DNA of 64,000 nt. Source: Candidatus Poribacteria bacterium. Its GTDB lineage: Bacteria; Poribacteria; WGA-4E; WGA-3G. The stretch lies in NCBI GenBank assembly GCA_965220325.1, contig OZ244821.1:1179428-1243427 (forward strand), in the 5' to 3' direction. Shown here piece after piece: positions 815 through 61,326 of the stretch (the first letter of the stretch is position 1; each line of letters starts with the position of its first letter). Made by a program: the position numbers and the translations under genes. The notes below the pieces were generated by a model. That model was given only the letters and a program-made list of their open reading frames with translations, had not been told where the DNA came from and searched no databases.

Positions 815-904
815 GTAGGTATTTGATAACGCAAGTTGCCAGGGCGATTTAGTTTTCGGTTTTGGCTTGGGTTTTCGTTTACATAAGTTGATGTTTTCTT
901 ATGA

Positions 905-986
905 AAGATCGCGAGCACAGCTCGCTCCTACAAGGGAGAAATATTTACATAGATAAAGTAAATATGTAAAACTAAGTACCCCTGCG
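905..986 (+). repeat. REP element copy (GATCGCGAGCACAGCTCGCTCCTAC hairpin followed by TTTACATAGATAAAGTAAATATGTAAA hairpin)
   Basis: The same roughly 80 bp unit recurs at about 14415, 21497, 26310 and 61180. It has a GTAG/CTAC tetranucleotide next to an imperfect palindrome, the classic REP architecture. It is preceded by a CAGGGCGATTTAGTTTTCGGTTTT module that is also seen at 6821 and 61113. Confidence 0.6.
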
Positions 987-6307: not shown

Positions 6308-6412
6308 GTAGGACTTACGCATGGTAGAGATATTGATGGACGGAAGGATGGAAGGAACGGAAGGATGGCGGGACACCCCCAATCTTCCAATCTTCCAATC
6401 TTGCGTAAGTCC
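6308..6412. repeat. hairpin microsatellite element: GGACTTACGCA inverted repeats enclosing a (GGAAGGATGG)n / (CCAATCTTCC)n palindromic core
   Basis: AGGACTTACGCATGG at 6311 and CGTAAGTCC at about 6402. The interior is GGAAGG-type repeats followed by their reverse complement. The same family occurs at 33205-33335, with single arms at 25192, 29938 and 38805. Confidence 0.55.
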
Positions 6413-6736: not shown

Positions 6737-6987
6737 GGTGTGTCAATATTTCGTCAATTGTTTAGGACTTACGCATCCGGAAACCCTTTTGTAGCAAGTG
6801 GTTGTTGGTTGTTGGTAAGACAGGGCGATTTAGTTTTAAGAAATTATTGGGTTTCAGGTCTTTCTTTACAGATCCGGTTCGGTTAGGAAACCGAACCTAC
6901 CGTGCCTGGGTGGACGGTGTATTGTTAATGCGATATAAACTTTTAGAAATGGTATAACCTTACCGAACCGCAAGGAAAATTAAAAAT

Positions 6988-8941: not shown

Positions 8942-9099
8942 CGTTTTACCTCCTTTTTGCGTAAAACCAGAAACGTGATAGTAGGGGTTGGGTAACCCAA
9001 CCTCTCCTATTATACAACGAGAAAATGGCAATTTTCAAGGTTAAAAGGAGATTATATACAAGTTGAAAAACGAAAACGGTTTATGATATAATAAGAATC

Positions 9100-11513: not shown

Positions 11514-12590
11514 ATGAACGTTTCAAACATAGATCTCTACCGTTTTTTTCCATCGCCGCTGGCACACTTTCCGGACAGAAGCGCGCGGTGGTTGTTTATA
11601 GACCCAGAGAACGTTAAAGGTTTAGTAGAACTCGTCGCGGGGCGTATCGCTACCCTATTGGATTTTAGCCAACTCACAGCCCTCAACCGGGACTTTCTGT
11701 CCGACACGCTCCGTGAACAGGAAGCCGACCTCGTTTTTAGTGTCCCGTTTCGCGATACCTCAGCAGACCAAGAACTGATCATCCACATCCTCATAGAGCA
11801 TCAATCTGGGGTGGACAAAGAGATGTGGTTTCGGTTTTTAGGATATATGTATAATCTCTGGGTTGCAGAACGTCAACGGTGGACAGCGGAGGAGGTTCCG
11901 AAAGAGGAACGCCGGTTGCTTCCGATTCTCCCGATCCTCTTTTACACCGGCGATCAGTCTTGGAGCCTCCCGCTGGCTCCAACTTCACTGATGGAAATCC
12001 CAGAGATACTTGCGCCGTTTGTTCCGACGTTTAACGTACTTTTGTTGGATGTCAAACAGACTGAACCAATCGAACTGACCAAAACAGGACATCCCCTCGG
12101 GTGGTTGCTTACGGTGCTCCAAAAGGAATTATCTTCAAAAGAAGAACTTACTGAGGCCTTAGTGACAGCACTCGATAGTTTAGATACGGTGCAAACCGAG
12201 CAGCATAGACGTGCGATGATATACTTGGCATCGCTCGTATATCATCGACGCCCCCCTGAAGAACGCGATACTTTGATAAAGGTCATAGACGCGCATTCGC
12301 GTGGAATGGAGGTAAAAACCATGTTTCAATCAATGGCAGAAGTCACATTTCAAAAAGGGATAGAGCAAGGGATAGAGCAAGGGATAGAGCAAGGGATAGA
12401 GCAAGGGGAAGCCCGCGCAAAACAGGTGGCACTCCTGAAACTCTTACACCACCAATTTCAGAGCATTCCCGAAACGTTAACAACATGGATTCAGACCCTC
12501 CACGATCCTGTTCATCTTGATAGGCTCTTTGAGAAGGTTCTGAACGCGGAAAACCTTCAAGATATTGACTGGGAGACCGATGACGCGTAA
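11514..12590 (+). CDS. Rpn family recombination-promoting nuclease / putative transposase (PD-(D/E)XK, YhgA-like)
   Basis: IIHILIEHQSGVDKEMWFRFLGYMYNLW core motif. C-terminal tandem (GIEQ)x4 encoded by 12-bp repeats at 12359-12406. Confidence 0.75.
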   Translation: MNVSNIDLYRFFPSPLAHFPDRSARWLFIDPENVKGLVELVAGRIATLLDFSQLTALNRDFLSDTLREQEADLVFSVPFRDTSADQELIIHILIEHQSGVDKEMWFRFLGYMYNLWVAERQRWTAEEVPKEERRLLPILPILFYTGDQSWSLPLAPTSLMEIPEILAPFVPTFNVLLLDVKQTEPIELTKTGHPLGWLLTVLQKELSSKEELTEALVTALDSLDTVQTEQHRRAMIYLASLVYHRRPPEERDTLIKVIDAHSRGMEVKTMFQSMAEVTFQKGIEQGIEQGIEQGIEQGEARAKQVALLKLLHHQFQSIPETLTTWIQTLHDPVHLDRLFEKVLNAENLQDIDWETDDA

Positions 12591-13095: not shown

Positions 13096-13153
13096 GTTGA
13101 ACGGGTGTCACCGAAATTGGGAAAGCCTGTCTATTCGGATGACCGGAATATCT

Positions 13154-13981
13154 CTATTCTTCTGAAGGGCGTGTTTGGAAGCGTGCAAGTTGTTCTCGGA
13201 GACGTTCGACTTCTGCTTCGGCGTTTTCTGCTCGGTCGTGCTGCTGCTGACGTGCAATCGCTTCCCGCTCTGCTTGGGCTTCGGCTGTTTCTGCTCGGGC
13301 TTCGGCTGTTTCTGCTCGGGCTTCGGCTGTTTCTGCTCGGGCAGCCTGCATCTCCTCCGGCGTTTGCAACCACTTGCCACCCATCGGATCGTAAACCCGC
13401 AAACGCCCCTCTTGTATAACGAAATCTAAACTCAGAACATCTGAATGGATACGTCCATCAGCATCCGGTTCTATCGGCACATACACACCCGCTACAAGCC
13501 GAAAACCCATGAGCGGTGGAGACAGATAAAGTGACTCGGCATCATAGAGCAGATAGTTCGATATGCCGAGTGCAGCGTAGAGTGCTTTCTTGTCGGTGAG
13601 GTCGTTCCGATACGTCGTCTTACTTGAGAATTCCATCACAAAATCTGGAACTTTGCCCTCTTCCCAGACTTTGTATGTGTGTCGCCGTTTTTGACCGATG
13701 TCGAAAGCGACGAGAACATCAGGGGCAACGACATCACGAGGGTTGCCCTCGGTGTAATAAGTGAGAATATCACCGGAGACGTAAGTATCGGGCATAGCGG
13801 CGAAATGTTCCCGCAGTGCTTGTATAAGCCAGATAAGGATTTCCAAGTGGAGGTCGCTTGCTGCCATCGGTTTACCGTCCGTATCAGGGTAGAGGTCTGC
13901 TGTATCTGTGGGTGCGTAAGATATATTGCGTCTATTTGTGTGCGTCCGCATCGGTGTTTCTCCTCTGCCGTGAGGCATCAA
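13154..13981 (-). CDS. Uma2 family (DUF820) endonuclease with C-terminal AETAEAR repeat extension
   Basis: YPDTDGKPMAASDLH...VVAPDVLVAFDIGQKRRHTYKVWEEGKVPDFVMEFSSKTT...YAALGISNYLLYD are Uma2 motifs. The C-terminus carries (AETAEARA)x3 from 24-bp tandem repeats at 13255-13330. The start may be M11 (13951). Confidence 0.75.
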   Translation of the reverse strand: MMPHGRGETPMRTHTNRRNISYAPTDTADLYPDTDGKPMAASDLHLEILIWLIQALREHFAAMPDTYVSGDILTYYTEGNPRDVVAPDVLVAFDIGQKRRHTYKVWEEGKVPDFVMEFSSKTTYRNDLTDKKALYAALGISNYLLYDAESLYLSPPLMGFRLVAGVYVPIEPDADGRIHSDVLSLDFVIQEGRLRVYDPMGGKWLQTPEEMQAARAETAEARAETAEARAETAEAQAEREAIARQQQHDRAENAEAEVERLREQLARFQTRPSEE

Positions 13982-14101
13982 AAACGTATCTTAAGGTTCT
14001 GAAGCGTATTATACCTTTTTCGGTAGCAGGATGTCAATCTTTTTATCACGACTGAATCCGTCGGTTTGCTATGTAGCGTTCGATTACCGCACATGAACCG
14101 C

Positions 14102-14407
14102 CTACACATCAGAACCGTTTTGTGGTACGCCGGGGGGCGGTTCTGTAAATTCCTCACTCCGCGCCGCCGCTTCTTTTCTTCGGCGATCCCATTCCACGAT
14201 TTCTTGATAAACTGCGGCCTTGCCTTCAGCAATGCCCTCGGCCTTGCCTTCAGCAATGCCCTCGGCTTTGGCAGCCTGAATCCGTTTTTCTCGCCTGTCA
14301 AGATACCAATCTGACAATAACATAATTACGTCAATGCCTCCTACTATCATTCCAGGATCATTCAATTCTCGATTTGGATATTGGTTTTGCTTTACGTAAG
14401 TGAACAC
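14102..14407 (-). CDS. hypothetical small protein with (AEGIAEGK) tandem repeats
   Basis: GTG start. C-terminal W..RRKEAA...E.F.EP.P tail is shared with 20812-21351. The N-terminal 16 codons are also found as a remnant at 21440-21497 next to a REP copy. Confidence 0.35.
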   Translation of the reverse strand: MFTYVKQNQYPNRELNDPGMIVGGIDVIMLLSDWYLDRREKRIQAAKAEGIAEGKAEGIAEGKAAVYQEIVEWDRRRKEAAARSEEFTEPPPGVPQNGSDV

Positions 14408-14414
14408 CCTTAGG

Positions 14415-14496
14415 AAAGATCGCGAGCGCAGCTCGCTCCTACAGGGGAGGAGTATTTACATAAACAAAGTGAATATGTAAAATTGAATGGTCCTGC
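14415..14496 (+). repeat. REP element copy
   Basis: AAAGATCGCGAGCGCAGCTCGCTCCTACAGGGGAGG...TTTACATAAACAAAGTGAATATGTAAA. Same family as 905-986. Confidence 0.6.
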
Positions 14497-14647
14497 TATG
14501 ATTCCGACTAAAACGCCACCAATAGGAATAAATGCCGAAATATCTTTTACGACATTCTGAACAGAGGGGTGTCCCTTCCAACCTTCTGCTATTTCATAAT
14601 CCACAGCGATGAAACCGTAGATGCTAACAAAAAACGAAATAAGGAAA

Positions 14648-14775
14648 AGTGCTCGCGATAAATATAACGACTCTTTTGTAGGAGCGAGCTGCGCTCGCGA
14701 TCTTCCTCATGCCATCGCGATCTTCCTCATGCCATCGCGATCTTCCTCATGCCATCGCGATCTTCCTCATTCCAT
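14648..14775 (-). repeat. inverted REP copy (TGTAGGAGCGAGCTGCGCTCGCGATC) plus a x4 tandem 20-mer (CATCGCGATCTTCCTCATGC) flanking the RAYT 3' end
   Basis: Reverse complement of the REP core, oriented opposite to the REP array on the other side of the RAYT gene. Confidence 0.55.
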
Positions 14776-15240
14776 CTCATATTTACATCGCCAAAATGGA
14801 TAATCCCGCGCAGCCTTTACCAATCCTGCTCTCACCGGGTTATGATAACAATATTCGATAATAGCGTTCAACGATTCATCCCGTCGAATACCGTGATCAT
14901 GGTAAGCAGGTTGCCAAATCGAACCGCTACGATCCAAACACGCATTAATCTGTTTCGCTGTGTGGCTTTTGAAGGACTGTATGAGTCTTGATAATGTTTG
15001 TTTACTGCCGAGTTGGATAACGGTGTGGATATGATCTGGCATCACACAGATACAAAACCATCTGAGTCGATCATTGGTTTCGAGCCAATCAAATGACTGA
15101 AAAATGATGTCAGCGATTTTGGGAGTTGCAAGCAGCGGTTTTTTCTTAAGTGTCGTAAGCGTGAGATAATAGTAGGTACCGGGTATGGAGTATCTGCCTT
15201 TACGGAGTTGTCGGTGTCCGCGGGTGGGTGTTCGTTGCAT
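14767..15240 (-). CDS. REP-associated tyrosine transposase (RAYT, IS200/IS605-like HuH transposase)
   Basis: 157 aa. HuH motif VMPDHIHTVIQL, SIWQPAYHDHGIR, and catalytic-Tyr region EYCYHNPVRAGLVKAARDYPFW, collinear with E. coli TnpA_REP. Flanked by inverted REPs. Confidence 0.9.
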   Translation of the reverse strand: MQRTPTRGHRQLRKGRYSIPGTYYYLTLTTLKKKPLLATPKIADIIFQSFDWLETNDRLRWFCICVMPDHIHTVIQLGSKQTLSRLIQSFKSHTAKQINACLDRSGSIWQPAYHDHGIRRDESLNAIIEYCYHNPVRAGLVKAARDYPFWRCKYEME

Positions 15241-15274
15241 TTCATATTCCTATAAGTTAGAGATTGTTTTTAGT

Positions 15275-15608
15275 GCCAAGATCGCGAGCACAGGGTCAAG
15301 ATCGCGAGCATAGTGCCAAGATCGCGAGCGACAAGAAACACCGTTTTTGCTTGGGCGTTTCTTGTAAGCAAAAACACTCGCTCCTACACAAGAGACGTTA
15401 GAATAATCGCGAGCACAGCTCGCTCCTACACAAGAGACGTTAGAATAATCGCGAGCACAGCTCGCTCCTACACAAGAGACGTTAGAATAATCGCGAGCAC
15501 AGCTCGCTCCTACACAAGAGACGTTAGAATAATCGCGAGCACAGCTCGCTCCTACACAAGAGACGTTAGAATAATCGCGAGCACAGCTCGCTCCTACACA
15601 AGAGGTGT
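15275..15608 (+). repeat. REP tandem array (about 7 units; five near-identical 42-bp units AATCGCGAGCACAGCTCGCTCCTACACAAGAGACGTTAGAAT)
   Basis: Direct tandem repeats with no spacers, so not CRISPR. The first units carry a 45-bp insertion in the hairpin loop identical to that in copy 21497. Confidence 0.65.
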
Positions 15609-15743
15609 TGAAGCATGTAAAAATGGTATAAGGCGCGAGTTGTTGGTCGAAACCGAAAGATTTTTTCGGAGAAAAAATCGTACCAACAACCAACAACCAA
15701 CAACCAACAACCAACAACCAATAACCCTTAAAAAAGCAAATAG

Positions 15744-15775
15744 CGGTGGACAGGGGATCCACCGCTATTTTTTCG
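15744..15775 (-). terminator. stem-loop AGCGGTGGACAGGGGATCCACCGCT with flanking T/A runs, probable bidirectional terminator downstream of the LTD-protein gene
   Basis: 9-bp perfect stem. TTTTTT follows on the plus strand and ATTTGCTTTTTT on the minus strand. Confidence 0.45.
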
Positions 15776-15821
15776 GTTAGTTCTTCGGTTATAATTCATC
15801 CCTGAATAACCGAGTTGTTGC

Positions 15822-19867: not shown

Positions 19868-20650
19868 TTTACTAATATTATACAAAATTAATTGTATTAA
19901 GTCAAATTTATTTGCGTTTTTTTGAATAAAAAACCATTTTTATCGGCAATTACACAAAATATTATCAATTTAATTAACAGTTAGCCGAAATTTACGAAAC
20001 TATATGCGTAGTAAACCCATTTATATTTTGTTTAATCGTGAATTATGTTTATTTTTTACCAAATACATTAATATTATACGAAATAAATTGTATTAAGTCA
20101 AATTTATTTGTGTTTTTTTTGAATATAATCGGATATTTCTCGGTTTTTTGGGGGCGTTTGGGGGATTTGTATTGCGTTTGGGTGGTATTTTGGAGGTGGT
20201 ACAAATACAAAGACCACAGGCTAACGGTCTCCTATGCTACAAAGATTCGGAATTTTTTATTGTTGTTTAGAGAGATGGTACAAATACAAAGACCACAGGC
20301 TAACGGTCTCCTATGCTACAAAGATAGCGTATCGTAGGTTGGGTTGAACGGATGCGACCAAACCGCTGGGAAGCTATAGGTTTGCACGTAGAAGCCGGTT
20401 CGGTTGGGAAACCGAACCTACCAGGACGGGGTCGGACCAGGACGGGATCGGAAGTGTGGGTAGGTTTTTAACCCGAAACACGCGCTGGATGCACACTCTT
20501 TTCAGGGTTCCCTAGGCCTTGAAACGTGATGCACGGCGCGTGTTGGCGGGTGTTTTTGTTTTCTTTGGAGGAGAATAACATCTTCCTCACACTTTAATTA
20601 TACGCTAAAATTTAAAATTAAGTCAAATTTATTTTGTTTTTTGAAAAGAT
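19868..20650. repeat. three copies of an AT-rich repeat (ATTATACRAAATNAATTGTATTAAGTCAAATTTATTTGYGTTTTTTTGAATA) in a non-coding AT-rich tract
   Basis: Copies at about 19868-19935, 20066-20135 and 20590-20650. No credible ORF in 19560-20800. Confidence 0.5.
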
Positions 20651-21407: not shown

Positions 21408-21496
21408 GGATTTTTTTATCAAGATTTTGATGCAGGGCCATTCAATTCTCGATTTGGATATTGGTTTTGCTTTACAGAGGTGAACATTCTTACGGA

Positions 21497-21621
21497 AAAT
21501 CGCGAGCGTGAAGAAACACCGTTTTTGCTTGGGCGTTTCTTAAGCAAAAACACTCGCTCCTACCGGGGAATCATATTCACAGATATAAAGTGAATAGGTA
21601 CAATTGAATGGCCCTGATAGT
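21497..21621 (+). repeat. REP copy with 45-bp hairpin-loop insertion
   Basis: CGCGAGCG[TGAAGAAACACCGTTTTTGCTTGGGCGTTTCTTAAGCAAAAACAC]TCGCTCCTAC...TTCACAGATATAAAGTGAATAGGTACA. The insert is itself a hairpin (GTTTTTGCTT/AAGCAAAAAC). Confidence 0.6.
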
Positions 21622-21948: not shown

Positions 21949-23091
21949 GTGAAAAATAATAATATGAAAAAGTTTATAGCAGGCGAATACAGACAACAGA
22001 GAGAATATAAGAGTTTTACACCGTCCCTCGTAAACCGCTATTTTGTTTGGGAAGACCCACAGATAAATATTCTAATGGCAAGGGCAATGCAGCTCTTAGG
22101 AGAGTTAAATGCTTATGCCGAACTCATACCAGATGTAGATTTCTTCATTCAAATGACAATTACGAAAGAAGCTCGAGATTCAAATCTGCTTGAAGGGACG
22201 AGAACCGAACTTGATGAAGTTGTTCTTCCGCACACGGAAATTCCGCCGACCAGACGCGGTGATAGACAAGAGGTTCAAAATTATATTGAAGCGATGAATT
22301 TCGCAATAGCCGAACTTCCAAAAATTCCGATTTCGATGCGACTTCTCAAGGATGTACATAAAATACTACTTTCCGGTGTTCGCGGAAAACACAAGGCACC
22401 CGGTGAAATTCGCAGAAGTCAAAACTGGATTGGCGGTTCCTCGGTTTCTGATGCTTTTTTCGTTCCACCTTCTCCAGAAGAAGTCCCAGATCTTTTAAGT
22501 GATTTGGAGAAATTTTGGCACAACCGATCCCTGCAAATTCCGGAACTGATTAAAATCGCTATCACACATTATCAGTTTGAGACCATTCACCCCTTCCTTG
22601 ATGGAAACGGTAGGTGCGGGAGACTGTTAATCGTCTTGCAACTCATTGATGCAAAGATACTTGAGAAGCCGGGGCTTTATGTATCTACTTTTTTTCAGAG
22701 ACATAAAGATGCGTACTATGATTCACTTACTACGGTCCGTAAATTGAATAAATTAGATCAATGGATATTGTTTTTCTTAGAAGGAATCGCTGATGCTGCC
22801 AAGGATACAAGAGAAACGTTCAAGTCGATTACTGCGCTTCGTCAAGAATATGATACAGCGATTTTTACCTTGGGTTCTCGGGCAAAGAACGCTCAAAAAT
22901 TACTACTTTTTATGTACTCCCAACCGATTGTTAACGTAAATTGGGTTGCAACGGAATTAAACATAAACTATCCAACCGCGAACCGTCTCCTAAAATGTTT
23001 GACAGAACTTGACATACTAAAGGAAATTACGGGATACTCGCGTAATCGCTTTTTTGTCTTGGAGAAATACCTGAACCTCTTCAGAAGTTAG
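21949..23091 (+). CDS. fic: Fic family protein (class II, intramolecular inhibitory helix), probable AMP-transferase
   Basis: Canonical HPFLDGNGRCGRLL (HPFx[DE]GNGR) motif. The inhibitory motif SNLLEG ([ST]xxxE[GN]) lies N-terminal to the core. C-terminal wHTH-like region. Confidence 0.85.
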   Translation: MKNNNMKKFIAGEYRQQREYKSFTPSLVNRYFVWEDPQINILMARAMQLLGELNAYAELIPDVDFFIQMTITKEARDSNLLEGTRTELDEVVLPHTEIPPTRRGDRQEVQNYIEAMNFAIAELPKIPISMRLLKDVHKILLSGVRGKHKAPGEIRRSQNWIGGSSVSDAFFVPPSPEEVPDLLSDLEKFWHNRSLQIPELIKIAITHYQFETIHPFLDGNGRCGRLLIVLQLIDAKILEKPGLYVSTFFQRHKDAYYDSLTTVRKLNKLDQWILFFLEGIADAAKDTRETFKSITALRQEYDTAIFTLGSRAKNAQKLLLFMYSQPIVNVNWVATELNINYPTANRLLKCLTELDILKEITGYSRNRFFVLEKYLNLFRS

Positions 23092-23508: not shown

Positions 23509-23734
23509 CTACTTCAGTCGATGGCTATTGTCTTTTCTAAACCTCTATACTATCTTTGATAAAGCGAATATGTAAAACTATAACGGATTTCAAAATTAAT
23601 GAGACCCTTTACAAGCGGACGAGGGAACCTCGCCCCTACAAGGGGTGGTCTCGGCAATCACTGAAATGTCTCTTTAATTATTGACTTTACTATAAATGCC
23701 CCTGATGGCCATGCTTTTTTTCGCTTGACTTTAC

Positions 23735-24093: not shown

Positions 24094-25191
24094 ATGAAAA
24101 TTCGAGATATTAAAGTCTATCAAGTGGATCTGCCGCTTTATGAAGGCAGCTACAACTGGTCCGGCGGAAAATCTGTTTCCGTTTTCGACAGTACGATTGT
24201 CTCCGTTGAAACAGACGAAGGTATTACCGGCTACGGTGAAGTCTGTCCGTTGGGACCGTTCTATCTGCCTGCTTACGCCACCGGTGCACGTACCGGTATC
24301 GCTGAACTTGCACAGCACCTCATCGGTGAAGACCCGACGCAACTCCTCCCGCTCAACCGACAGATGGACATCGCACTCAAGGGGCATCCGTACGTGAAAT
24401 CTGCAATCGACATGGCGTGCTGGGATATCCTCGGGAAAGCTTCAAACGCATCTATCTGCACGCTTCTCGGTGGGCGGTATGGCGAGGACTTCATGCTCTA
24501 TCGCGCGATCTCACAGGAATCGCCTGACGAGATGGCGGCGAAGGTTGCAACTTACCGGGCGGAGGGGTACCGTAAATTCCAGTTGAAAGTCGGCGGGGAT
24601 CCAAATACCGATATCGAACGTATCCACGCTGTCGCCGAGTTGATGGAATCGGGAGATGTGCTGATCGCGGATGCAAACACGGGGTGGTTGATGCACCAAG
24701 CTGCTCGCGTCGTCCGAGGTGTGAGCGATGTGGATGTCTATATCGAGCAGCCCTGTCTCTCATACGAAGAGTGCCTCGCCATCCGTCAGCGGACCGACCA
24801 CCCCTTTGTTCTCGATGAGACCATCGACGGCATCCACGCCTTATTACGCGGTCATGCCGACCGGGCGATGGATGTTGTGAATATCAAGATTAGCAAATTC
24901 GGCGGATTGACCAAAGCGAAACTCGCCAGAGACCTCTGCGTTGAACTCGGCGTAGCGATGACGATTGAAGACAGCTGGGGCGGCGATATTACAACCGCCG
25001 CGATTGCGCATCTGGCACACAGCACACCGCCAGAATTCCTTTTCACAGCGACGGATTTCAACAGTTATGTCACTGTCAGCACGGCGGAAGGCGCGCCGCA
25101 ACGGGTTAACGGCAGGATGGCAGCGTCAACGCAACCAGGTTTGGGGATTACACCGAAGATGGGGGTGTTGGGTGAAGAGCGGAAGAGGTGA
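24094..25191 (+). CDS. mandelate racemase/muconate lactonizing enzyme family (enolase superfamily) protein
   Basis: MR/MLE N-terminal capping domain plus barrel with metal-ligand region. 365 aa. Confidence 0.8.
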
Positions 25192-25270
25192 AGAGGGAAG
25201 GATGGAAGGCGGAAAGATGGAAGAGGGGAGGATGGAAGACCGGAGGATGGAAGAGGGGAGGCGGGAAGTT

Positions 25271-26236: not shown

Positions 26237-26309
26237 TTAGGACTTACGCATGCGGCTCTTTCGTACCACAAACTTTATGAAGATTAAATAAATATTTGGG
26301 TAATCGTTA

Positions 26310-26388
26310 AAGATCGCGAGCGCAGCTCGCTCCTACAGGGAAGAAGTATTTACATAGATAAAGTGAATATGTAAACTAAATACCCCTA
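26310..26388 (+). repeat. REP element copy
   Basis: AAAGATCGCGAGCGCAGCTCGCTCCTACAGGGAAGAAGTATTTACATAGATAAAGTGAATATGTAAA, immediately 3' of the LamG-protein gene. Confidence 0.6.
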
Positions 26389-29144: not shown

Positions 29145-30511
29145 GGCAGTACAAACTTTCCGAGGATTTTCCGAACAGATGCCCCTGTCGCTGAAGGCAG
29201 GTTCCCCGCATTTCCGTGGAGCGTCTCATTCGCCAGAATCGCGAACGCGATCGCCTCCTTCGCATCCGCTGAGATACCAGAGGTGTTCACAGGTTCAACT
29301 GTCGTGTTTTCCAATACTTCGCTCAACCGTTGCATGAGGGTCTGATTGTGGACACCGCCGCCACTCACATAAAGCACGTCTATCGGATTTTGTCCCGCTA
29401 TAAATTGTGCGATGTAGCCGGTAATCGTTTGGACCGTCAACTCGGTCAGTGTCGCGATGCAGTCGTTATCTGAAAGTGTGCGCTTCCGGCAAGCTGTGAG
29501 ACATTCCATCGCATAATTGCGTCCAAACATCTCACGTCCAGTCGTTTTTGGCGGTGGCAGATGGAAAAACGGGTGCTTCAACCATTCGTCAATGATCGGT
29601 TGGTGCGGCGTACCCTGCGCGGCACGCTGCCCCGCTGCGTCATACCGTTCTGTCCCTTCCGTGATCTCTGTTATGACAGCGTCAATACACATATTGCCGG
29701 GCCCCGTATCCGCGGCACAGACAGTATCGAATGCGCCATTTGCCGGAAGCACCGTGAGATTCGCAATCCCGCCGATATTCAAGAGTCCGACTGTTTCAGT
29801 GCTGTTGTGGAACAGCAGATAATCTGGGTATGATACCAACGGTGCACCTTGTCCGCCTGCTGCCATATCCGCGACGCGGAAATCCGCTATCGTTGGAATC
29901 CCTGTTTCGTGTGCAATGACTGCAGGCTCCCCAATCTGCAATGTCGATGACAGGGTGGAAGGGTGGAAGGGTGGAAGGGTGGAAGGGATTGGAAGGGATT
30001 GGAAGGATGGAAGGGCGGAAGGATGGGGGGGATTGGAAGGGTGGATGGGTGGAAGGGTGGAAGGGATTGGAAGGGATTGGAAGGATGGAAGGGCGGAAGG
30101 ATGGAGGGGATTGGAAGGATGGAAGGGTGGAAGGGTGGAAGGGATGTTTGGGTCTTTCGGGAGGTGATGGATCGTTTGGCCGTGTGAACCGATGAGGTCA
30201 ATATCGCTGGTAGACATTTCGCTTTTTTGTAGGATGTGTTTAACTGCCTCAGCGAAGAGGTATCCGATATAGAAATTCATTTCACAGATGTCGTCAACAC
30301 GACCCGTATCGGGTTGACAGAGCGCAAGGATACGTTGTGGCACGCCAGATGGAAACGGAACAGTCTCAAAAGCGATCAGGTCTACTTTAGTTTCCAAACC
30401 GTGTCCGACAATTTCGACAATAGCAGCATCAATGCCGTCAACTGAGGTACCGGACATTAACCCGATAACCAATTTTTTATCTTTCTTGAGAAGTTCAAAA
30501 AAATGTTTCAT
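29141..30511 (-). CDS. anmK: anhydro-N-acetylmuramic acid kinase with an in-frame roughly 65 aa Pro-rich repeat insertion
   Basis: GLMSGTSVDGIDAAIVEI..., GSHGQTIHH..., TLQIGEPAVIAHETGIPTIADFRVADMAAGGQGAPLV are collinear with E. coli AnmK. The insert TLPPFHPSNPLHPSALPSFQSLPIPS... is encoded by CCTTCC repeats. Confidence 0.85.
   Translation of the reverse strand: MKHFFELLKKDKKLVIGLMSGTSVDGIDAAIVEIVGHGLETKVDLIAFETVPFPSGVPQRILALCQPDTGRVDDICEMNFYIGYLFAEAVKHILQKSEMSTSDIDLIGSHGQTIHHLPKDPNIPSTLPPFHPSNPLHPSALPSFQSLPIPSTLPPIHPSNPPHPSALPSFQSLPIPSTLPPFHPSTLSSTLQIGEPAVIAHETGIPTIADFRVADMAAGGQGAPLVSYPDYLLFHNSTETVGLLNIGGIANLTVLPANGAFDTVCAADTGPGNMCIDAVITEITEGTERYDAAGQRAAQGTPHQPIIDEWLKHPFFHLPPPKTTGREMFGRNYAMECLTACRKRTLSDNDCIATLTELTVQTITGYIAQFIAGQNPIDVLYVSGGGVHNQTLMQRLSEVLENTTVEPVNTSGISADAKEAIAFAILANETLHGNAGNLPSATGASVRKILGKFVLP
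29938..30172. repeat. (GGAAGG[GA]TGG)n microsatellite block lying inside the anmK reading frame
   Basis: GGGTGGAAGGGTGGAAGGGTGGAAGGGATTGGAAGG... on the plus strand. Same repeat family as 6337-6400, 25192-25268, 33215-33300 and 38805-38850. Confidence 0.6.
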
Positions 30512-31971: not shown

Positions 31972-33264
31972 CTATATAGTGTACACGATGTTGTGGAACA
32001 TCCTCCGAAAGTCGATGATACCGCGCCGGTCAGCATCAGGGTGCACCCGATTTGTCAGCAGGATAGCCGCGAGTTTCCTTTTCAGGCATATCCGTATTGA
32101 GGTACCGGTGAATCCTGTATGATAGAGACACCCATCGTCTGTTACGATCCAACCGATACAACGGCGTTCTCCTTCCGCTGAAACGACTTGACGCATCGTG
32201 TTAAGACTCTCCGGCCGCAATAAACCGTTTCCGCCGCTATCCATCAACGCTTTACAAAACTTTCCGAGGTCTGTTGACGTAGAAAAGAGACCTGCGTTTC
32301 CTGAAATCCCGCCGAGGAAATGTGCGTTTTCGTCGTGTACCTGTCCGATAATCACGCCTTCGCGCCAGTCGTAGCGTTCGTAGTTGACCATCCGACGTTC
32401 AAAACTGTTTGAATCCTCAGTCGCTGCACAATTCTTATGCCATTCCTGCGGTGGATTGAACCGCGTCCACTCCATACCGAGCGGCGCGAAAATCCGCTCT
32501 TCTGATAGTTCGTCAAGCGACTGTCCTGTTACCCTTTCAAGCAATTTACCGAGTACGATATACCCTAAGCAGCTATACACCGTCTTTTCTCCGGGTTGAG
32601 ATGCCAAAGCGATCTGACCGAGGTAAGAGACAACCCGCTCACGAGATTCCGCCCGTAGATAGAGCGGTATCCATGCCGGGAGTCCAGAGGTATGCGCCAG
32701 CAGGTGTGTGAGCGTTACGCCCTTCTGTCGGAATTCCGGCAGATATTCCTGCACCGGTCTACGCAGTGAAAGTTCACCGCTTTCAACGAGTTGCATGCAA
32801 AGTGTTCCGACAACAATAGGTTTTGTCAGCGATGCTAAGTCAAAGAGTGTCCTGCGAAGCATCGGGAGGCGTTTCGGTTTTACGCATCGGAAGCCGAACG
32901 CTTCATGGTAAATCACTCGCTCGCTAGTGAGAATGTATGCAACAGCTCCGGGGAACACCTTTTCCGAAATGCTATTTTGAATAAGTGTCGAAATCGTATT
33001 TTTAATTATTGGCCTCCGTACATCGTTCCACTTCGTTTCACGATGGTTTCTGATCAAGGACGCAACACAAGTAGAAACAAACACATCGGAAATAACCAAA
33101 AACCTGCTCGAAATGTAATGGAGAGCAGAAAAAGTACCTCTAATTATTGGCCTCCGTACATCGTTCCACTTCGTTTCACGGCAGAAAAAGAGCCAATATC
33201 TTAAATAGGACTTAGGCAAAAGTGGAAGAGTGGAAGAGTGGAAGAGTGGAAGGTGTCCTTCCAT
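31972..33264 (-). CDS. beta-lactamase-fold serine hydrolase (AmiE/YbbE-like, probable MurNAc-peptide amidase); start uncertain
   Basis: SxxK motif LASLTKP. N-terminal FPGAVAYILTSERVIYHEAFG. Coupled to namZ with a 2 nt gap. The first 90 or so codons of the track ORF are repeat-derived (GGAAGG block plus a 40-bp direct repeat). Confidence 0.55.
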   Translation of the reverse strand: MEGHLPLFHSSTLPLLPKSYLRYWLFFCRETKWNDVRRPIIRGTFSALHYISSRFLVISDVFVSTCVASLIRNHRETKWNDVRRPIIKNTISTLIQNSISEKVFPGAVAYILTSERVIYHEAFGFRCVKPKRLPMLRRTLFDLASLTKPIVVGTLCMQLVESGELSLRRPVQEYLPEFRQKGVTLTHLLAHTSGLPAWIPLYLRAESRERVVSYLGQIALASQPGEKTVYSCLGYIVLGKLLERVTGQSLDELSEERIFAPLGMEWTRFNPPQEWHKNCAATEDSNSFERRMVNYERYDWREGVIIGQVHDENAHFLGGISGNAGLFSTSTDLGKFCKALMDSGGNGLLRPESLNTMRQVVSAEGERRCIGWIVTDDGCLYHTGFTGTSIRICLKRKLAAILLTNRVHPDADRRGIIDFRRMFHNIVYTI

Positions 33265-33335
33265 CCTTCCGTTCCTTCCATCCTTCCGTTCCTTCCATCC
33301 TTCCGTCCATCAATATCTCTACCATGCGTAAGCCC
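33205..33335. repeat. hairpin microsatellite element (GTGGAAGA)n-(TTCCATCCTTCCG)n bounded by AGGACTTAGGCA / TGCGTAAGCCCT
   Basis: Reverse-complement arrangement of the 6308-6412 element, including TAGAGATATTGATGGACGGAAGG. Confidence 0.55.
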
Positions 33336-38803: not shown

Positions 38804-38862
38804 AGATTGGAAGATTGGAAGATTGGAAGGGTGGAAGAGGGGAAGAAAGGTAGATCGGAACG

Positions 38863-56283: not shown

Positions 56284-59200
56284 CTATTTCCGTATCAACA
56301 GTTTCCGGGTCGCAAAATAATTGCCCGCTTTGAGGGTGTAGAAATACACGCCTGTCGCAACCTTTTCACCGAGCTGATTCCGTCCATCCCAATGCGCCGC
56401 CTTGCTCCGACTTTGGTAGATACCCGCAGGCTGGTGCCCCAATCGCAACTTCCGCACGATCCGCCCCCGCACATCGTAGATCGTTAGCGTAACTTCTGCC
56501 GGTTTGGCGAGCTGATACGGTATCCACGTTTCAGGGTTGAACGGGTTCGGGAAGTTAGTCAAGAGTGCAGTATTATCAGGAATCACAAGAGATGTTTCAA
56601 GGGATGGCGCAGCACCTACGACATCCGTGACATTGATGGTAACGGTAATACTATCAGTCCCACCCTTCCCATCAGAGACAGCGACTTTGACCGTATAAGT
56701 GCTCTTCGTTTCAGCATCAAGTTCAGCGTTAGTTTGGAGTTGACCGGATGATTTAACAATACGAAACGAATCCGCATCCGTGCCACCGAGATGATAAGTG
56801 AGTGTATCCCCGGTATCCTCATCTGTGGCAGCGACCACACTGCCGATGTTTGTACCGGAAGCGGTGTTTTCTGCTACAGAACGGGTTGTGCTATCACCAT
56901 CGCTAAACACAGGGGCGTTATTATTTGCTACTGCAGGAATTGTAATATCTAAGGTTAAACCTGGATGACCTTCAATTACCTCAATTGCTGCCTTGAGTCG
57001 ACGGAGGGGACCATAATCCAAAATCTGATTCCCCGACAGACCAAGTTCTGTGAGTGCGGTCAAGTTTTCAAGCGCAGAAACATCGCTTATGGAATTGTTA
57101 TTCAGAGCGAGTTCTGTGAGTGCGGTCAAGTTTTCAAGGGCGGATATATCACTGATCCAATTGTTAGACAGAATGAGTCGTTTCAGTGAAGTCAAGTTTT
57201 CAAGGGCGGATATATCGCTTATGGGATTCCAATGCAGATTGAGGTCTGTGAGTGCGGTCAAGTTTTTAAGGGCGGATATATCGCTTATGGAATTCCAATC
57301 CATCTTGAGGTTTGTGAGTGCGGTCAAGTTTTTAAGGGCGGATATACTGCTTATGGAATTACGAGACAGATCGATCCAATTCAGTGCGGTCAAGTTTTTA
57401 AGGGCGGATATATCGCTTATGGAATTGTAACTCAGAAAGAGCTGTTTCAGTGAAGTCAAGTTTTTAAGTGTGGATATATCGCTTATGGAATTATTATGCA
57501 GATATAACCATTCCAGTGCGGTCAAGTTTTTAAGGGCGGATATATCGCTTATGGGATTGAAACCCAGAAAGAGCCATTTCAGTGAAGTCAAGTTTTTAAG
57601 GGCGGATATATCGCTTATGGAATTGTGTTTCAGAACGAGGTTTGTCAGTGAAGTAAATCCATCAAAATCACCAACCTTTAGTGCCGTTATTCTTCTGTAG
57701 TCAATGCTAAGGGAAGTTATTGCAGCAAGATGGGCTGCAGTCACATCGGCGGCATTATTAACATTCGGTACCGCAGCAACAATTGCATCTCGCACCTGTC
57801 GTGTGCGTTCATTGACCGGAGTAAATTCGGATACATCCGTCACATTTATGGTAACGGCGATGCTATCACTCCCGCCGCTGCCATCAGAGACAGACACTGA
57901 CACGGAATAAGACGACTTGCTTTCATAATCCAAGGCGGCACTCGTCTGCAGTTGCCCAGAGGTCGAAACAATACGAAACGAACTTGCATCCGTGCCCCCC
58001 AAAGTATACGTGAGTGTATCGCCGCTATCCGTATCTGTCGCAGCAATAGCACTGCCGATGTTTCTGCCGGAGGGAGTGTTCTCTGCGATGGAGCGCGTCG
58101 TCTCGGTGCCATCGTTGAAGACAGGTGCGTTGTTAGGAGCCGCACTCACTTGAATTGAGAACGTCAGCGTGGCTGAAAGTGTTCCATCACTCGCCGTATA
58201 GGTATAGGTCGCTGAAGCTGTCTCAGTTGTAGGTGTTCCAGAAAGCGTGCGCGTTGAAGCCGTAAAGGTCAACCCGGCAGGGAGTGCTGGTGTCACCGTG
58301 TATGTGATCGTATTGCCAGCATCAACATCGGTTGCTTCAGGCAAGGCCACCGACGTGATTGCTGTTCCTGCGGTGGCAGAAATATTACTGATGCTTGCTC
58401 CCGCACTGAACGCTGGTGCCTCGTTGACGTTCGTGACATTAATCGTGACGGCGATGCTATCACTCCCGCCGTTTTTATCAGAAACAGATACTGACACAGA
58501 ATAAGACGACTTGCTTTCGTAGTTTAGGGCAGCACTAGTTCGGAGTTGCCCGGATGTGCCGACAATACTGAACAAGGAGGCATCTGCGCCACCTAAAGTA
58601 TAGGTGAGTGTGTCGCTGGTATCCGCATCTGTCGCAGCAACGGGACTTCCGATGTTTGTACCTGAACGGGTGTTCTCAGCAACAGACCGAGTAGTGCTGG
58701 TGCCATCGTTGAATGCGGGGGCGCGGTTCTCATTCACATCTGTAATATTGATGGTGACGAGGACGCTATTGACAAGACCCCCGCTATCCGTCGCGCGGAC
58801 AGCCAGATTGTTGTAAGTGCGCTTCGTTTCATAGTCAAGAGCCGCGCGGGTTTGCAGCTGCCCTGTCCTTGCGTCAATACGAAATACGTTTTTATCGCCC
58901 CGCTGAAGCGAATAGGTCAGTGTATCGCCACTATCGGGGTCTGTGGCCTGGAAGGGCCTGCCGATGTTTCTGCCGGAAGCCGTGTTCTCTGGGACGGAGA
59001 GTGTGACCCTTCCAAAAGTGCTGAAACTCGGTTTCTCATTGACATCTGTAACACTGATCGTGACGGCGATGCTATCTGTGCCGCCATTGCCGTCGGAGAC
59101 AGAAACCGTGACAGCGTAGGAGTTGTCTGCTTCATGGTTCAGGGCAACATTGGTTTGCAGCTGCCCGGAGGTGGAAACAATGCGAAACGAGGACGCATCC

Positions 59201-61022: not shown

Positions 61023-61179
61023 GCCTAAGAAACGTCTAGTAAATTCAGAACGTCATATCAGACTTCACAACAAAAAATTTCTACCAAAATAGGTATACGT
61101 CTCTATCTTTTCTCAGGACAATTTAGTTTTCGGTTTCGATCTTGGTTTTGGTTGACAGATGTTAACGTTTAGATGCCAG

Positions 61180-61326
61180 GTCGCGAGCGTGAAGAAATCC
61201 GCAGAAATACCCAGGCAATACGCAGAAATACCCAAGCAAATACACCCCAAGCAAATACACTCGCTCCTACCGGGGAAGCGTATTCACATAGATAAAGTGA
61301 ATATGTAAAACTAAACACCCCTGCTA
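61180..61326 (+). repeat. REP copy with a 70-bp loop insertion made of CAGAAATACCCARGCAAATAC repeats
   Basis: GTCGCGAGCG[insert]CACTCGCTCCTACCGGGGAAGCGTATTCACATAGATAAAGTGAATATGTAAAACTAAACACCCCTG. Confidence 0.6.

What the first reader, a model, noticed from the sequence alone, without database searches (positions are those of the whole stretch)
14648..15625. Complete RAYT-REP unit: a HuH tyrosine transposase flanked by inverted REPs and a REP tandem array
- **RAYT identity.** The 157 aa ORF at 14767-15240 aligns motif for motif with E. coli TnpA_REP. The motifs are the HuH box PDHIHTV and the catalytic Tyr in YHNPVRAGL.
- **REP flanks.** On its 3' side at about 14677-14702 lies a reverse-orientation REP, TGTAGGAGCGAGCTGCGCTCGCGATC. 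On its 5' side, 15275-15608, lies a forward-orientation array of 42-bp REP units. Each unit carries the GTAG/CTAC tetranucleotide next to a GCGAGC-ACA-GCTCGC hairpin.
- **Interpretation.** This is the source and maintenance locus for the REP family scattered through the window. It shows that the otherwise anonymous repeats are a REPIN/RAYT system.
Basis: partly seen in the sequence, partly recalled or inferred. Interest (0 to 1): 0.55.

Follow-up and report, generated by a model that had tools for sequence, protein, structure and literature searches.

The report
Poribacterial RAYT with REP arrays (REPtron)
This is a genuine REP-associated tyrosine transposase gene flanked by its own palindromic repeats in a sponge-symbiont (Poribacteria) genome, an ordinary kind of system, but this copy sits where a close relative has an intact gene and every scattered repeat in the window rides inside a different kind of small mobile element.

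Summary
ORF 14767-15240(-) is a RAYT: NCBIfam REP_Tyr_transpos scores 136.8 bits against a cutoff of 80, and the predicted fold best matches E. coli TnpA_REP (4ER8). HuH is H70/H72. The catalytic Tyr is most likely Y130 with N134, not the Y of YHNPV. Its REP is GTAG-GA-GCGAGC-NNN-GCTCGC-GAT. REPs flank the gene as mutually inverted direct arrays, and fourteen related poribacterial REPtrons examined share this layout. This is a REPtron, a known kind.

The interpretation needs three corrections.
- **Not REPINs.** Poribacterial REPs are mostly singletons or head-to-tail arrays (2 inverted pairs in 38 clusters).
- **Scattered copies ride in MITEs.** All five class-A REPs outside the locus sit inside 143-210 bp elements. 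Four have both terminal inverted repeats and three have 9-11 bp target-site duplications. One (14353-14495) is a clean insertion into a gene that is intact in a 97%-identical relative. Their spread here is therefore not shown to be RAYT-driven.
- **Non-canonical locus.** This REPtron replaces 413 bp, including 23 codons of that same gene. At least nine of its relatives sit beside an AAA-ATPase and/or Type ISP gene.

A rare long-loop REP shared by the REPtron and a MITE links the two.

The parts
14767..15240 (-). RAYT (TnpA_REP) gene, 157 aa. HuH is H70-I71-H72. The likely catalytic Tyr is Y130, with N134 at +4.
   Evidence: NCBIfam NF047646 scores 136.8 bits against a cutoff of 80, while the IS200 model scores 29.2 against 55. 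Pfam Y1_Tnp matches. PDB 4er8 matches by sequence at E=3e-8. The AlphaFold model (pLDDT 88.7) has 4er8_A as top hit with TM 0.67. H70, H72, Y130 and N134 are invariant in 43 homologues. dN/dS is 0.06-0.17.
14677..14702 (+). Complete REP on the 3' side of the RAYT, with the GTAG strand on +: T-GTAG-GA-GCGAGC-TGC-GCTCGC-GATC.
   Evidence: Exact match. As ssDNA it forms a 6-bp stem with a 3-nt loop, -6.8 kcal/mol.
14649..14676 (+). Outer left edge of the unit. A REP truncated in its loop (GTGCTCGCGAT, 14649-14659) is followed by a 17-nt spacer homologous to the array spacer. The junction with host DNA lies at about 14649/14652.
   Evidence: It belongs to the 53-nt inverted-repeat arm 14649-14701, which pairs with 15406-15458. 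Homology to the empty-site relative L126 ends at 14652.
14695..14776 (+). 20-bp tandem repeat x4.1 (TCGCGATCTTCCTCATGCCA). It repeats the REP tail plus the sequence that follows the RAYT stop codon, and the innermost copy contains the stop codon.
   Evidence: TRF reports 98% matches. Family D3. A GGAAGATCGCG half-site directly after the stop codon is conserved in L120, L121 and L124.
15271..15329 (-). 20-bp tandem repeat x2.8 of REP halves (GATCGCGAGC plus loop), lying between the RAYT start and the array.
   Evidence: family D5.
15319..15388 (-). Long-loop REP: GATCGCGAGCG, then a 46-nt insert made of two interleaved palindromes, then CTCGCTCCTACA.
   Evidence: pair I18. The same variant occurs at 21497-21565 (about 64 of 69 nt identical) and at 61170-61270, and in L013, L078 and L130.
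15377..15604 (-). 42-bp direct array, 5.4 copies at 100% identity. Five complete REPs lie at 15405-15430, 15447-15472, 15489-15514, 15531-15556 and 15573-15598. Their GTAG strand is the RAYT coding strand.
   Evidence: On the RAYT strand each REP also scores as terminator-like.
15605..15650 (.). Right edge of the replaced segment. Homology to the empty-site relative resumes at 15651.
14353..14495 (+). 143-bp MITE carrying a REP (14418-14443) at its centre. Its TIRs are CAGGATCATTCAATT and AATTGAATGGTCCTG. The 9-bp TSD is CTATCATTC (14344-14352) and CTATGATTC (14496-14504).
   Evidence: Relative L126 has a single CTATCATTC and no element. Removing the element plus one TSD copy restores an ORF that is 98% identical to the intact 155-aa protein P0121.
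14102..14648 (-). Remnant of a 155-aa membrane-protein gene. It is split by the MITE and has lost its first 23 codons to the REPtron.
840..984 (+). REP-bearing MITE (REP at 907-932) with a perfect 10-bp TSD, CGCAAGTTGC.
21433..21616 (+). MITE with perfect 15-nt TIRs carrying the long-loop REP. No TSD is recognisable.
26312..26388 (+). REP plus the right MITE arm only. The left flank resembles a different palindromic context seen in L064 and L007, so the element is a chimera joined at the REP.
61114..61323 (+). MITE carrying a long-loop REP expanded by internal tandem repeats, with a perfect 11-bp TSD, CTATCTTTTCT.

Best explanation
The locus is a functional REPtron of a Candidatus Poribacteria genome. 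It encodes a single-domain HUH/Y1 enzyme (RAYT).

**Proposed mechanism, by analogy with characterised TnpA_REP.**
- The enzyme binds the folded single-stranded REP, reading the GTAG tetranucleotide plus a perfect 6-bp GC hairpin with a 3-nt loop.
- It cleaves at nearby C|T dinucleotides through Y130, with H70, H72 and N134 holding the metal.
- It rejoins the strands.

**Shown.**
- Protein identity, fold and catalytic residues.
- Purifying selection on the gene.
- REPs flank the gene as two mutually inverted head-to-tail arrays, with the GTAG ends distal.
- This layout is conserved in 14 related REPtrons, while copy number and period vary even between near-identical strains.

**Inferred.**
- The RAYT, and/or slippage at the hairpins, generates the local arrays and half-REP repeats.
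- The arrays on the coding strand may act as terminators that insulate RAYT expression.

**Two further facts are shown.**
- This copy occupies a non-canonical site. It replaces 413 bp, including the start of a gene present in a 97%-identical relative, and one junction lies inside a REP loop.
- Every REP of this class elsewhere in the window sits inside a TIR-bearing MITE. Three of these have 9-11 bp TSDs and one was caught as a fresh insertion.

The most likely overall picture is therefore that the RAYT acts locally, on arrays and on REP exchange with neighbouring MITEs. Long-range spread of these REPs in this genome is carried by MITE transposition through an unidentified DDE-type transposase.
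For: **RAYT identity.**
- establish family, fold and catalytic residues.
- Purifying selection.

**REP statistics and hairpin.**

**Conserved architecture.**
- Seen in L119-L125, L127 (two copies) and L129-L131.
- Array copy number differs between L120 and L121, which encode the identical RAYT.

**Non-canonical site.**
- The empty-site relative is L126.
- The canonical neighbourhood, AAA_16 ATPase, RAYT, then Type ISP or HemN, appears.
- Homology between this unit and the canonical ones stops at the REP arrays.

**MITEs.**
- TIRs and TSDs.
- TSD test: 9 of 19 elements against 0 of 76 offset controls.
- Filled and empty site pairs: window against L126, and L130 against L125 with TSD TTCGGATTGT.

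**Link between REPtron and MITE.** The 26-nt core is identical and the 46-nt long-loop variant is shared.

**Mechanism template.** PMC8266576 documents Y115F, Y130F, C|T cleavage and GTAG as guide.
Against: - No biochemical or expression evidence exists for this protein.
- The 42-bp and 20-bp repeats are perfect tandem copies in a window that is generally rich in tandem repeats (59 TRF rows). Plain replication slippage explains them without any RAYT action.
- The REPtron did not make a clean insertion. It replaced 413 bp, and the two flanks differ in identity to L126 (97% against 84%). Recombination or a mosaic history is as likely as transposition.
- The transposase that moves the MITEs was not found.
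- Of 40 REP clusters (36 from other Poribacteria loci, 4 from the window), 24 show no recognisable TIR. MITE carriage is therefore not general.
Confidence: 0.8

Rival explanations
1. It is an autonomous IS200/IS605-type insertion sequence that still transposes itself, not a domesticated RAYT. The new location and the second copy in one genome would be ordinary IS behaviour.
For: - Pfam Y1_Tnp matches.
- The unit is absent from a 97%-identical relative.
- Two copies lie 3 kb apart in one genome.
- Homology between copies ends at the flanking hairpins.
Against: - The IS200 equivalog model scores below its cutoff (29.2 against 55), while the RAYT model scores 136.8 against 80.
- The flanking hairpins are mutually inverted and multiple. 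They are not one LE and one RE on the same strand.
- No tnpB is present.
- At least nine relatives share parts of one neighbourhood, beside an AAA_16 ATPase and/or Type ISP gene.
- The copies differ by dS 0.16-0.6, so they are not the near-identical copies expected of an active IS.
- The event here removed 413 bp rather than inserting next to a specific tetranucleotide.
Confidence: 0.1
2. The RAYT is real, but the arrays, half-REP repeats and relocation owe nothing to it. Hairpin-prone DNA undergoes slippage, template switching and REP-to-REP recombination, and the host merely tolerates the result.
For: - Array units are 100% identical, spacer included.
- The long-loop insert is an inverted duplication typical of template switching.
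- Tandem repeats are common throughout the window.
- The REPtron junction and the 26312 chimera both lie in or at a REP, as expected for recombination between repeats.
Against: - The gene is under strong purifying selection with all catalytic residues invariant, so some activity is maintained.
- The inverted-array layout is conserved across 14 REPtrons although the spacers turn over.
- The extra REP in the L121 MITE has a different tail (GGT rather than AAG) from its neighbour. That argues against simple local duplication.
Confidence: 0.3
3. The REP hairpins inside the MITEs are unrelated to this RAYT. They are an intrinsic MITE feature, such as a terminator or folding apex, that merely resembles the REP.
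For: - MITEs with the same TIRs carry other central hairpins or none (L013, L022, L040, L109, L130).
- MITE mobility needs only TIRs.
Against: - The 26-nt core, including GTAG and the GAT(C) tail, is identical to the RAYT-flanking REPs.
- The rare 46-nt long-loop variant is shared between the REPtron and MITE 21433-21616.
- The other central hairpins are also GTAG-tagged REP classes.
- MITEs lie within 300 bp of the REPtron in 4 of about 9 independent loci.
Confidence: 0.1

Closest known systems
Group 3 REPtrons (Stenotrophomonas maltophilia REPtron Sm, Marinomonas REPtron Mb; PMC8266576)
   Same: - A small RAYT is flanked by cognate REPs.
- REPs are perfect short palindromes with a 3-4 nt loop preceded by GTAG, here separated from the stem by 2 nt as in REPMb.
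- C|T dinucleotides lie next to the REP.
- The catalytic Tyr sits at a position equivalent to Sm Y130.
   Different: - The host phylum is Poribacteria.
- The flanks are head-to-tail arrays rather than single REPs or BIME-like alternating clusters.
- Activity is untested.
- Group assignment rests only on REP structure, and on 37% identity to two gammaproteobacterial RAYTs against 24% structure-based identity to E. coli TnpA.
E. coli TnpA_REP / REPtron Ec (PDB 4ER8, group 2)
   Same: - Best structural and sequence match in the PDB.
- HuH, Tyr and Asn align.
   Different: - E. coli REPs are longer, bulged palindromes organised in BIMEs.
- The E. coli gene is single-copy with no evidence of mobility (PMC8266576).
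Pseudomonas GTAG-1 REPs and REPIN-RAYT systems (PMC3733652, PMC3116915)
   Same: The REP core GTAGGAGCGAGC-NNN-GCTCGC is letter-for-letter the same and is found in many Pseudomonas, Methyloversatilis and Lysobacteraceae genomes. In L037 and L104 it flanks RAYTs.
   Different: - There the REPs are mostly inverted doublets (REPINs). Here they are singletons or direct arrays.
- The RAYTs are only 37% identical.
REPs embedded in longer palindromes (Anabaena variabilis GTAG-15 dimers, Halothiobacillus CGTC-1; PMC3733652)
   Same: REPs sit regularly at the centre of a longer inverted-repeat sequence.
   Different: - Here the host sequence is a bona fide MITE with TIRs, 8-11 bp TSDs and filled and empty sites.
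- It exists with several REP classes and without a REP. The paper found no REP-free target palindromes and reported no TSDs.
IS200/IS605 insertion sequences
   Same: - The same HUH/Y1 fold, with ISDra2, IS200 and IS608 next in the fold search.
- The coding sequence is bordered by hairpins.
   Different: - The hairpins are inverted and multiple.
- The IS200 model scores below its cutoff.
- There is no TnpB.
- Most copies sit at a conserved locus.

Membership tests
RAYT / TnpA_REP | HUH motif (His-hydrophobic-His) on the central sheet | tested here: met
   H70-I71-H72 aligns with HMH of 4er8. H70 and H72 are invariant in 43 homologues.
RAYT / TnpA_REP | Catalytic Tyr on the C-terminal helix with a polar metal ligand at +4 (E. 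coli Y115 and N119) | tested here: met
   Y130 and N134 align with Y115 and N119 and are invariant, whereas Y132 is not. Y115F and Sm Y130F are the catalytic mutants in PMC8266576.
RAYT / TnpA_REP | Scores above the curated RAYT model threshold and is not better explained by the IS200 model | tested here: met
   NF047646 scores 136.8 against a cutoff of 80. NF033573 (IS200) scores 29.2 against a cutoff of 55.
RAYT / TnpA_REP | Fold of TnpA_REP | tested here: met
   Model pLDDT is 88.7. The top PDB hit is 4er8_A with E=6e-10 and TM 0.67.
RAYT / TnpA_REP | Binds and cleaves cognate single-stranded REP | not testable with these tools
   Needs purified protein and oligonucleotide assays.
REPtron | tnpA_REP immediately flanked by cognate REPs in inverted orientation | tested here: met
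   The REP at 14677-14702 has its GTAG strand on +. The five REPs at 15405-15598 have theirs on -. The inverted-repeat arms are 53 nt. All 14 related REPtrons show the same arrangement.
REPtron | The same REP is distributed elsewhere in the genome in many copies | tested here: inconclusive
   Five further class-A copies lie in the 64-kb window. Multiple loci come from each complete poribacterial chromosome.
REPtron | Typical behaviour: single copy with no mobility of tnpA_REP | tested here: not met
   The unit is absent from the 97%-identical relative L126 and replaces 413 bp there. Two copies occur in one genome. This is a typical property, not a defining one.
GTAG REP (GTAG-1-like) | Short GC-rich palindrome tagged at one end by GTAG, with a conserved 3-nt tail at the other end | tested here: met
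   The sequence is GTAG-GA-GCGAGC-TGY-GCTCGC-GAT. The hairpin has -6.8 kcal/mol. The core is shared with Pseudomonas-type REPs. The family description is in PMC3733652.
REPIN | Two REPs in inverted orientation, tens of nt apart, forming one long hairpin, as the predominant unit | tested here: not met
   Poribacteria show 28 singletons, 8 direct arrays and 2 inverted pairs. Proteobacteria with the same core show 41 inverted pairs and 13 mixed clusters among 111. No such doublet exists in the window.
IS200/IS605 insertion sequence | TnpA scoring as IS200-type, one left-end and one right-end hairpin on the same strand, insertion 3' of a fixed tetra- or pentanucleotide without loss of target DNA | tested here: not met
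   The IS200 model scores below its cutoff. The hairpins are inverted and multiple. The event removed 413 bp.
MITE (for the scattered REP copies) | Small non-coding element with terminal inverted repeats and target-site duplications, seen as filled and empty sites | tested here: met
   TIRs are CAGGNNNATTYARTT. TSDs occur in 9 of 19 elements against 0 of 76 controls. Empty sites are L126 and L125 against L130.
MITE (for the scattered REP copies) | A cognate autonomous IS with the same TIRs | tested here: inconclusive
   None was found among about 130 loci or in the window. The DDE_5 IS in L127 has different TIRs, TAGGACTTACGCA. No collection-wide search was made.
CRISPR array (considered for 15377-15604) | Identical repeats separated by unique spacers | tested here: not met
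   The 16-nt spacers are all identical, since the 42-bp units are 100% identical.

The most novel reading that the evidence does not exclude
In Poribacteria, GTAG-REPs spread by a relay between two transposition systems.
- The RAYT acts only locally. It builds head-to-tail arrays and places or exchanges REPs at the single-stranded apex of neighbouring hairpin-forming MITEs.
- A DDE-type transposase then scatters those REP-loaded MITEs, leaving 9-11 bp TSDs.
- REPtrons themselves can be relocated at REP boundaries, contrary to the current statement that tnpA_REP shows no mobility.
Probability: 0.3. Interest if true: 0.65.

Novelty: new variant of a known kind. Interest (0 to 1): 0.5.

Why it matters
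How REPs disseminate is still described as poorly understood, and tnpA_REP is said to show no evidence of mobility (PMC8266576).

This locus offers concrete, checkable cases in long-read poribacterial genomes:
- a REP-bearing element caught as a fresh insertion with a TSD;
- REP gains between strains that encode the identical RAYT;
- a REPtron present at a site that is empty in a 97%-identical relative.

If the pattern holds genome-wide, part of REP spread can be attributed to hitch-hiking on classical MITEs. That would change how REP population dynamics are modelled. If it does not hold, this is simply a well-documented REPtron in a new phylum.

Tried and rejected
- **Rfam.** A gathering-threshold scan of the whole window found no family, so the repeats are not a known RNA.
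- **CRISPR reading of the 42-bp array.** Rejected because the spacers are identical.
- **ORFs across the array.** The 170-aa and 155-aa ORFs (15250-15762 minus strand, 15313-15780 plus strand) are mechanical read-throughs of the repeat and were not pursued.
- **Source contig.** Exact look-up of the window's own RAYT (P0001) found no record. The source contig could not be fetched and no genome-wide REP count was possible.
- **Synteny.** Comparison of the window with seven RAYT loci found none beyond the unit. That finding led to the empty-site search.
- **The 413 bp missing from the window.** No translocated copy was found.
- **Autonomous IS with the MITE TIRs.** None was found among the fetched loci. 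The one IS examined belongs to another TIR family.
- **Literature.** Searches for Poribacteria with RAYT, REP or MITE found nothing relevant. The one 'RAYT' hit opened matched only the author name Raytselis.
- **Replication-strand bias.** All five scattered copies have the same orientation, but this was not evaluated. Five copies and a weak skew are too few.
- **Not used.** The metagenome-contig scan, the search of protein representatives, and the phrogs and padloc libraries.
Full report
**Observation**

ORF 14767..15240 on the minus strand (157 aa) is present as described.
- It scores 136.8 bits on NCBIfam NF047646 'REP-associated tyrosine transposase' (cutoff 80). It scores only 29.2 on the IS200 model (cutoff 55).
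- It matches Pfam Y1_Tnp. Its best solved relative is E. coli TnpA_REP, 4er8.
- An AlphaFold model built on 43 homologues (pLDDT 88.7) has 4er8_A as its top PDB hit (TM 0.67). ISDra2, IS200 and IS608 transposases follow.
- H70, H72, Y130 and N134 are invariant across homologues down to 46% identity. Y132 is not.
- Y130 and N134 align with E. coli Y115 and N119. Y115F is the published catalytic mutant (PMC8266576).
- dN/dS against eight relatives is 0.06-0.17, so the gene is maintained.

**The REP**

- The 26-nt core GATCGCGAGC[G/A]CAGCTCGCTCCTACA occurs nine times in the window, against none in shuffles.
- On its active strand it reads T-GTAG-GA-GCGAGC-TGY-GCTCGC-GAT(C). As ssDNA it folds into a 6-bp stem with a 3-nt loop at -6.8 kcal/mol.
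- It is a perfect palindrome separated by 2 nt from GTAG. That resembles the group 3 REPs described in PMC8266576.

**Anatomy of the locus**

Reading the plus strand:
- a REP truncated in its loop (14649-14659);
- a 17-nt spacer;
- a full REP (14677-14702, GTAG strand on plus);
- a 20-bp x4.1 tandem repeat that reiterates the REP tail and contains the RAYT stop codon (14695-14776);
- the RAYT gene;
- a 20-bp x2.8 repeat of REP halves (15271-15329);
- a REP whose loop holds a 46-nt insert of interleaved palindromes (15319-15388);
- a perfectly identical 42-bp array with five REPs (15377-15604, GTAG strand on minus).

Arms 14649-14701 and 15406-15458 are 53-nt inverted repeats.

**Organism and relatives**

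- Homologues are almost all from Candidatus Poribacteria. The identical protein is recorded on a 6.11-Mb contig.
- I examined fourteen related REPtrons (88-97% protein identity). All have 2-5 head-to-tail REPs upstream with the GTAG strand on the coding strand. All have 2-7 REPs in the opposite orientation downstream. Periods range from 29 to 78 bp and the spacers are unrelated.
- L120 and L121 encode the identical RAYT, yet they differ by one extra REP in the downstream array and one extra REP elsewhere. The arrays turn over quickly.
- On the RAYT strand each array REP also scores as a weak terminator.

**Not REPINs**

- Clusters found with the same core pattern in 32 poribacterial loci comprise 28 singletons, 8 direct arrays and 2 inverted pairs.
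- In 86 proteobacterial loci carrying the identical core (Pseudomonas, Methyloversatilis, Lysobacteraceae and others), 41 of 111 clusters are inverted pairs and 13 are mixed.
- Two gammaproteobacterial RAYTs flanked by this same core are only 37% identical to ours. They are flanked by inverted doublets.
- The core corresponds to the widespread GTAG-1 type of PMC3733652. That paper also documents head-to-tail dimers and tandem clusters, so direct arrays are not new in themselves.

**The scattered copies are inside MITEs**

- Every class-A REP outside the REPtron lies at the centre of a 143-210 bp element with terminal inverted repeats CAGGNNNATTYARTT:
  - 840-984, with TSD CGCAAGTTGC;
  - 14353-14495, with TSD CTAT[C/G]ATTC;
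  - 21433-21616, with no TSD seen;
  - 61114-61323, with TSD CTATCTTTTCT;
  - 26312-26388, with the right arm only.
- Across all fetched loci, 9 of 19 TIR-bounded elements have flanking direct repeats of 8-11 bp at 88% identity or better. None of 76 offset controls do.
- Contig L126 is 97% identical to window 13144-14652. It has a single CTATCATTC and no element.
- Removing the element plus one TSD copy restores an ORF that is 98% identical to an intact 155-aa protein, P0121.
- A second filled and empty pair is L130 against L125, with TSD TTCGGATTGT.
- HUH/Y1 transposition is not known to produce TSDs (established knowledge of IS200/IS605). These REP copies were therefore moved by a cut-and-paste or copy-and-paste enzyme acting on the TIRs. 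I did not find that enzyme.
- The same TIRs enclose other interiors. Some carry other GTAG-tagged hairpins, such as GGTTCGGTT-type and GCGAT-type, and some carry none.
- Of 40 REP clusters (36 from other Poribacteria loci, 4 from the window), 24 show no recognisable TIR. MITE carriage is prominent here but not universal.

**Links between MITEs and the REPtron**

- The REP core is identical.
- The unusual long-loop variant in the REPtron (15319-15388) is nearly identical to the one in MITE 21433-21616. It recurs in other REPtrons.
- A MITE lies within 300 bp of the REPtron in the window, in L120/L121 and beside both copies in L127.
- The 26312 copy is a chimera. Its left flank matches a different palindromic context and its right flank is a MITE arm, with the join at the REP.
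- These points suggest exchange or recombination at REPs. They do not prove RAYT involvement.

**The REPtron is at a non-canonical site**

- In at least nine relatives the RAYT lies beside an AAA_16/AAA_35 ATPase gene and/or a Type ISP restriction gene, usually followed by HemN and ADH genes.
- In the window it lies between the disrupted 155-aa gene and an LTD-domain protein gene.
- Relative to L126, window 14653-15650 replaces 413 bp that include the first 23 codons of that gene. The left junction falls in a REP loop. The 413 bp is not found elsewhere in the window.
- Homology to canonical REPtrons ends at the REP arrays.
- One genome carries two REPtrons 3 kb apart, 85% identical in DNA.
- The event is a replacement with unequal flank identities (97% against 84%). 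Recombination is as plausible as transposition.
- It nonetheless contrasts with the statement that there is no evidence of tnpA_REP mobility (PMC8266576).

**Verdict**

- This is a real and complete REPtron, a new member of a well-known kind in a phylum for which I found no description.
- The REPIN label is not supported.
- The claim that this locus maintains the scattered copies is not shown.
- The added value is threefold:
  - direct evidence that REPs of this class are currently being spread inside TSD-generating MITEs;
  - evidence that arrays change between near-identical strains;
  - evidence that a REPtron can change location.
- Mechanistic steps beyond identity and architecture are inferred.

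Noticed in passing
window 6821-~6990 and 20421; 23615-23640; 8981; 19693; 40239: Other GTAG-tagged hairpin classes occur at low copy. GTAGGTTCGGTT-TCCT-AACCGAACC sits at 6900(-) inside an element that starts with the same MITE left TIR (6821), and again at 20421(-). GTAGGGGCGAGG-TTC-CCTCGTCC sits at 23639(-). Single GTAG hairpins sit at 8981, 19693 and 40239. This suggests several REP classes, and probably several RAYTs, in this genome.
   Followed up: partly
window 6309, 6763, 26238; L127 1078-2167: The motif TAGGACTTACGCAT recurs in the window. It equals the 14-bp terminal inverted repeat of an IS encoding a DDE_5/DDE_Tnp_1 transposase in a related genome, so these are probably solo ends or MITEs of a second family. 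The one at 26238 abuts the truncated REP-MITE at 26312.
   Followed up: partly
window 15625-15780: Just outside the REPtron there is an extended -10-like TGGTATAAG (about 15633). It is followed by a GTTGTTGGT...ACCAACAAC hairpin, 6.4 copies of the heptamer ACCAACA (15682-15726) and a strong bidirectional terminator (15738-15770). This could be a short non-coding transcript. AAATGGTATAAC-like motifs also occur at about 6975 and in L126.
   Followed up: no
window 14455-14483 and the equivalent positions in the other MITE copies: The right arm of the REP-bearing MITE carries an outward-facing sigma-70-like site (TTTACA-17-TAAAAT, 10 of 12 matches). It also carries a small hairpin ATT[C/T]AC-N9-GT[G/A]AAT with compensatory changes between copies: C-G, T-A and T-G.
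   Followed up: partly
window 6335-6402, 25174-25268, 29952-30145, 33221-33308, 38804-38846: There are many short purine-rich tandem repeats (GGAAGG/AGGGTGGA-type octamers, up to 22 copies) near ORF ends. They are a separate repeat class that I did not examine.
   Followed up: no
window 13269-13342 and 14215-14270: There are in-frame coding tandem repeats. A 21-bp x3.5 repeat (AETAEAR units) lies in the C-terminus of the Uma2-family protein. A 24-bp x2.3 repeat (KAEGIAEG units) lies in the disrupted 155-aa protein, and its copy number varies among homologues P0121-P0126.
   Followed up: no
window 56284-60672 (and 57047-57650): A 1462-aa protein carries nine cadherin domains, LRRs and a Por secretion tail. 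It contains 66/132/198-bp tandem repeats. It looks like a eukaryote-like surface protein of the kind reported for sponge symbionts (my own knowledge).
   Followed up: no
window 11514-12590, 13154-13981, 21949-23091: The neighbourhood holds a YhgA-like (Transposase_31) protein, a Uma2-family endonuclease-fold protein and a Fic/DOC protein. In relatives the RAYT lies next to a Type ISP restriction-modification gene that is present, truncated or absent depending on the genome.
   Followed up: partly
L115 3276-3752; L121 5581-5751: REPs inside MITEs can amplify in place. One MITE holds an eight-copy, 48-bp-period REP array. Another gained a second REP with a different tail compared with the otherwise near-identical L120.
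   Followed up: partly
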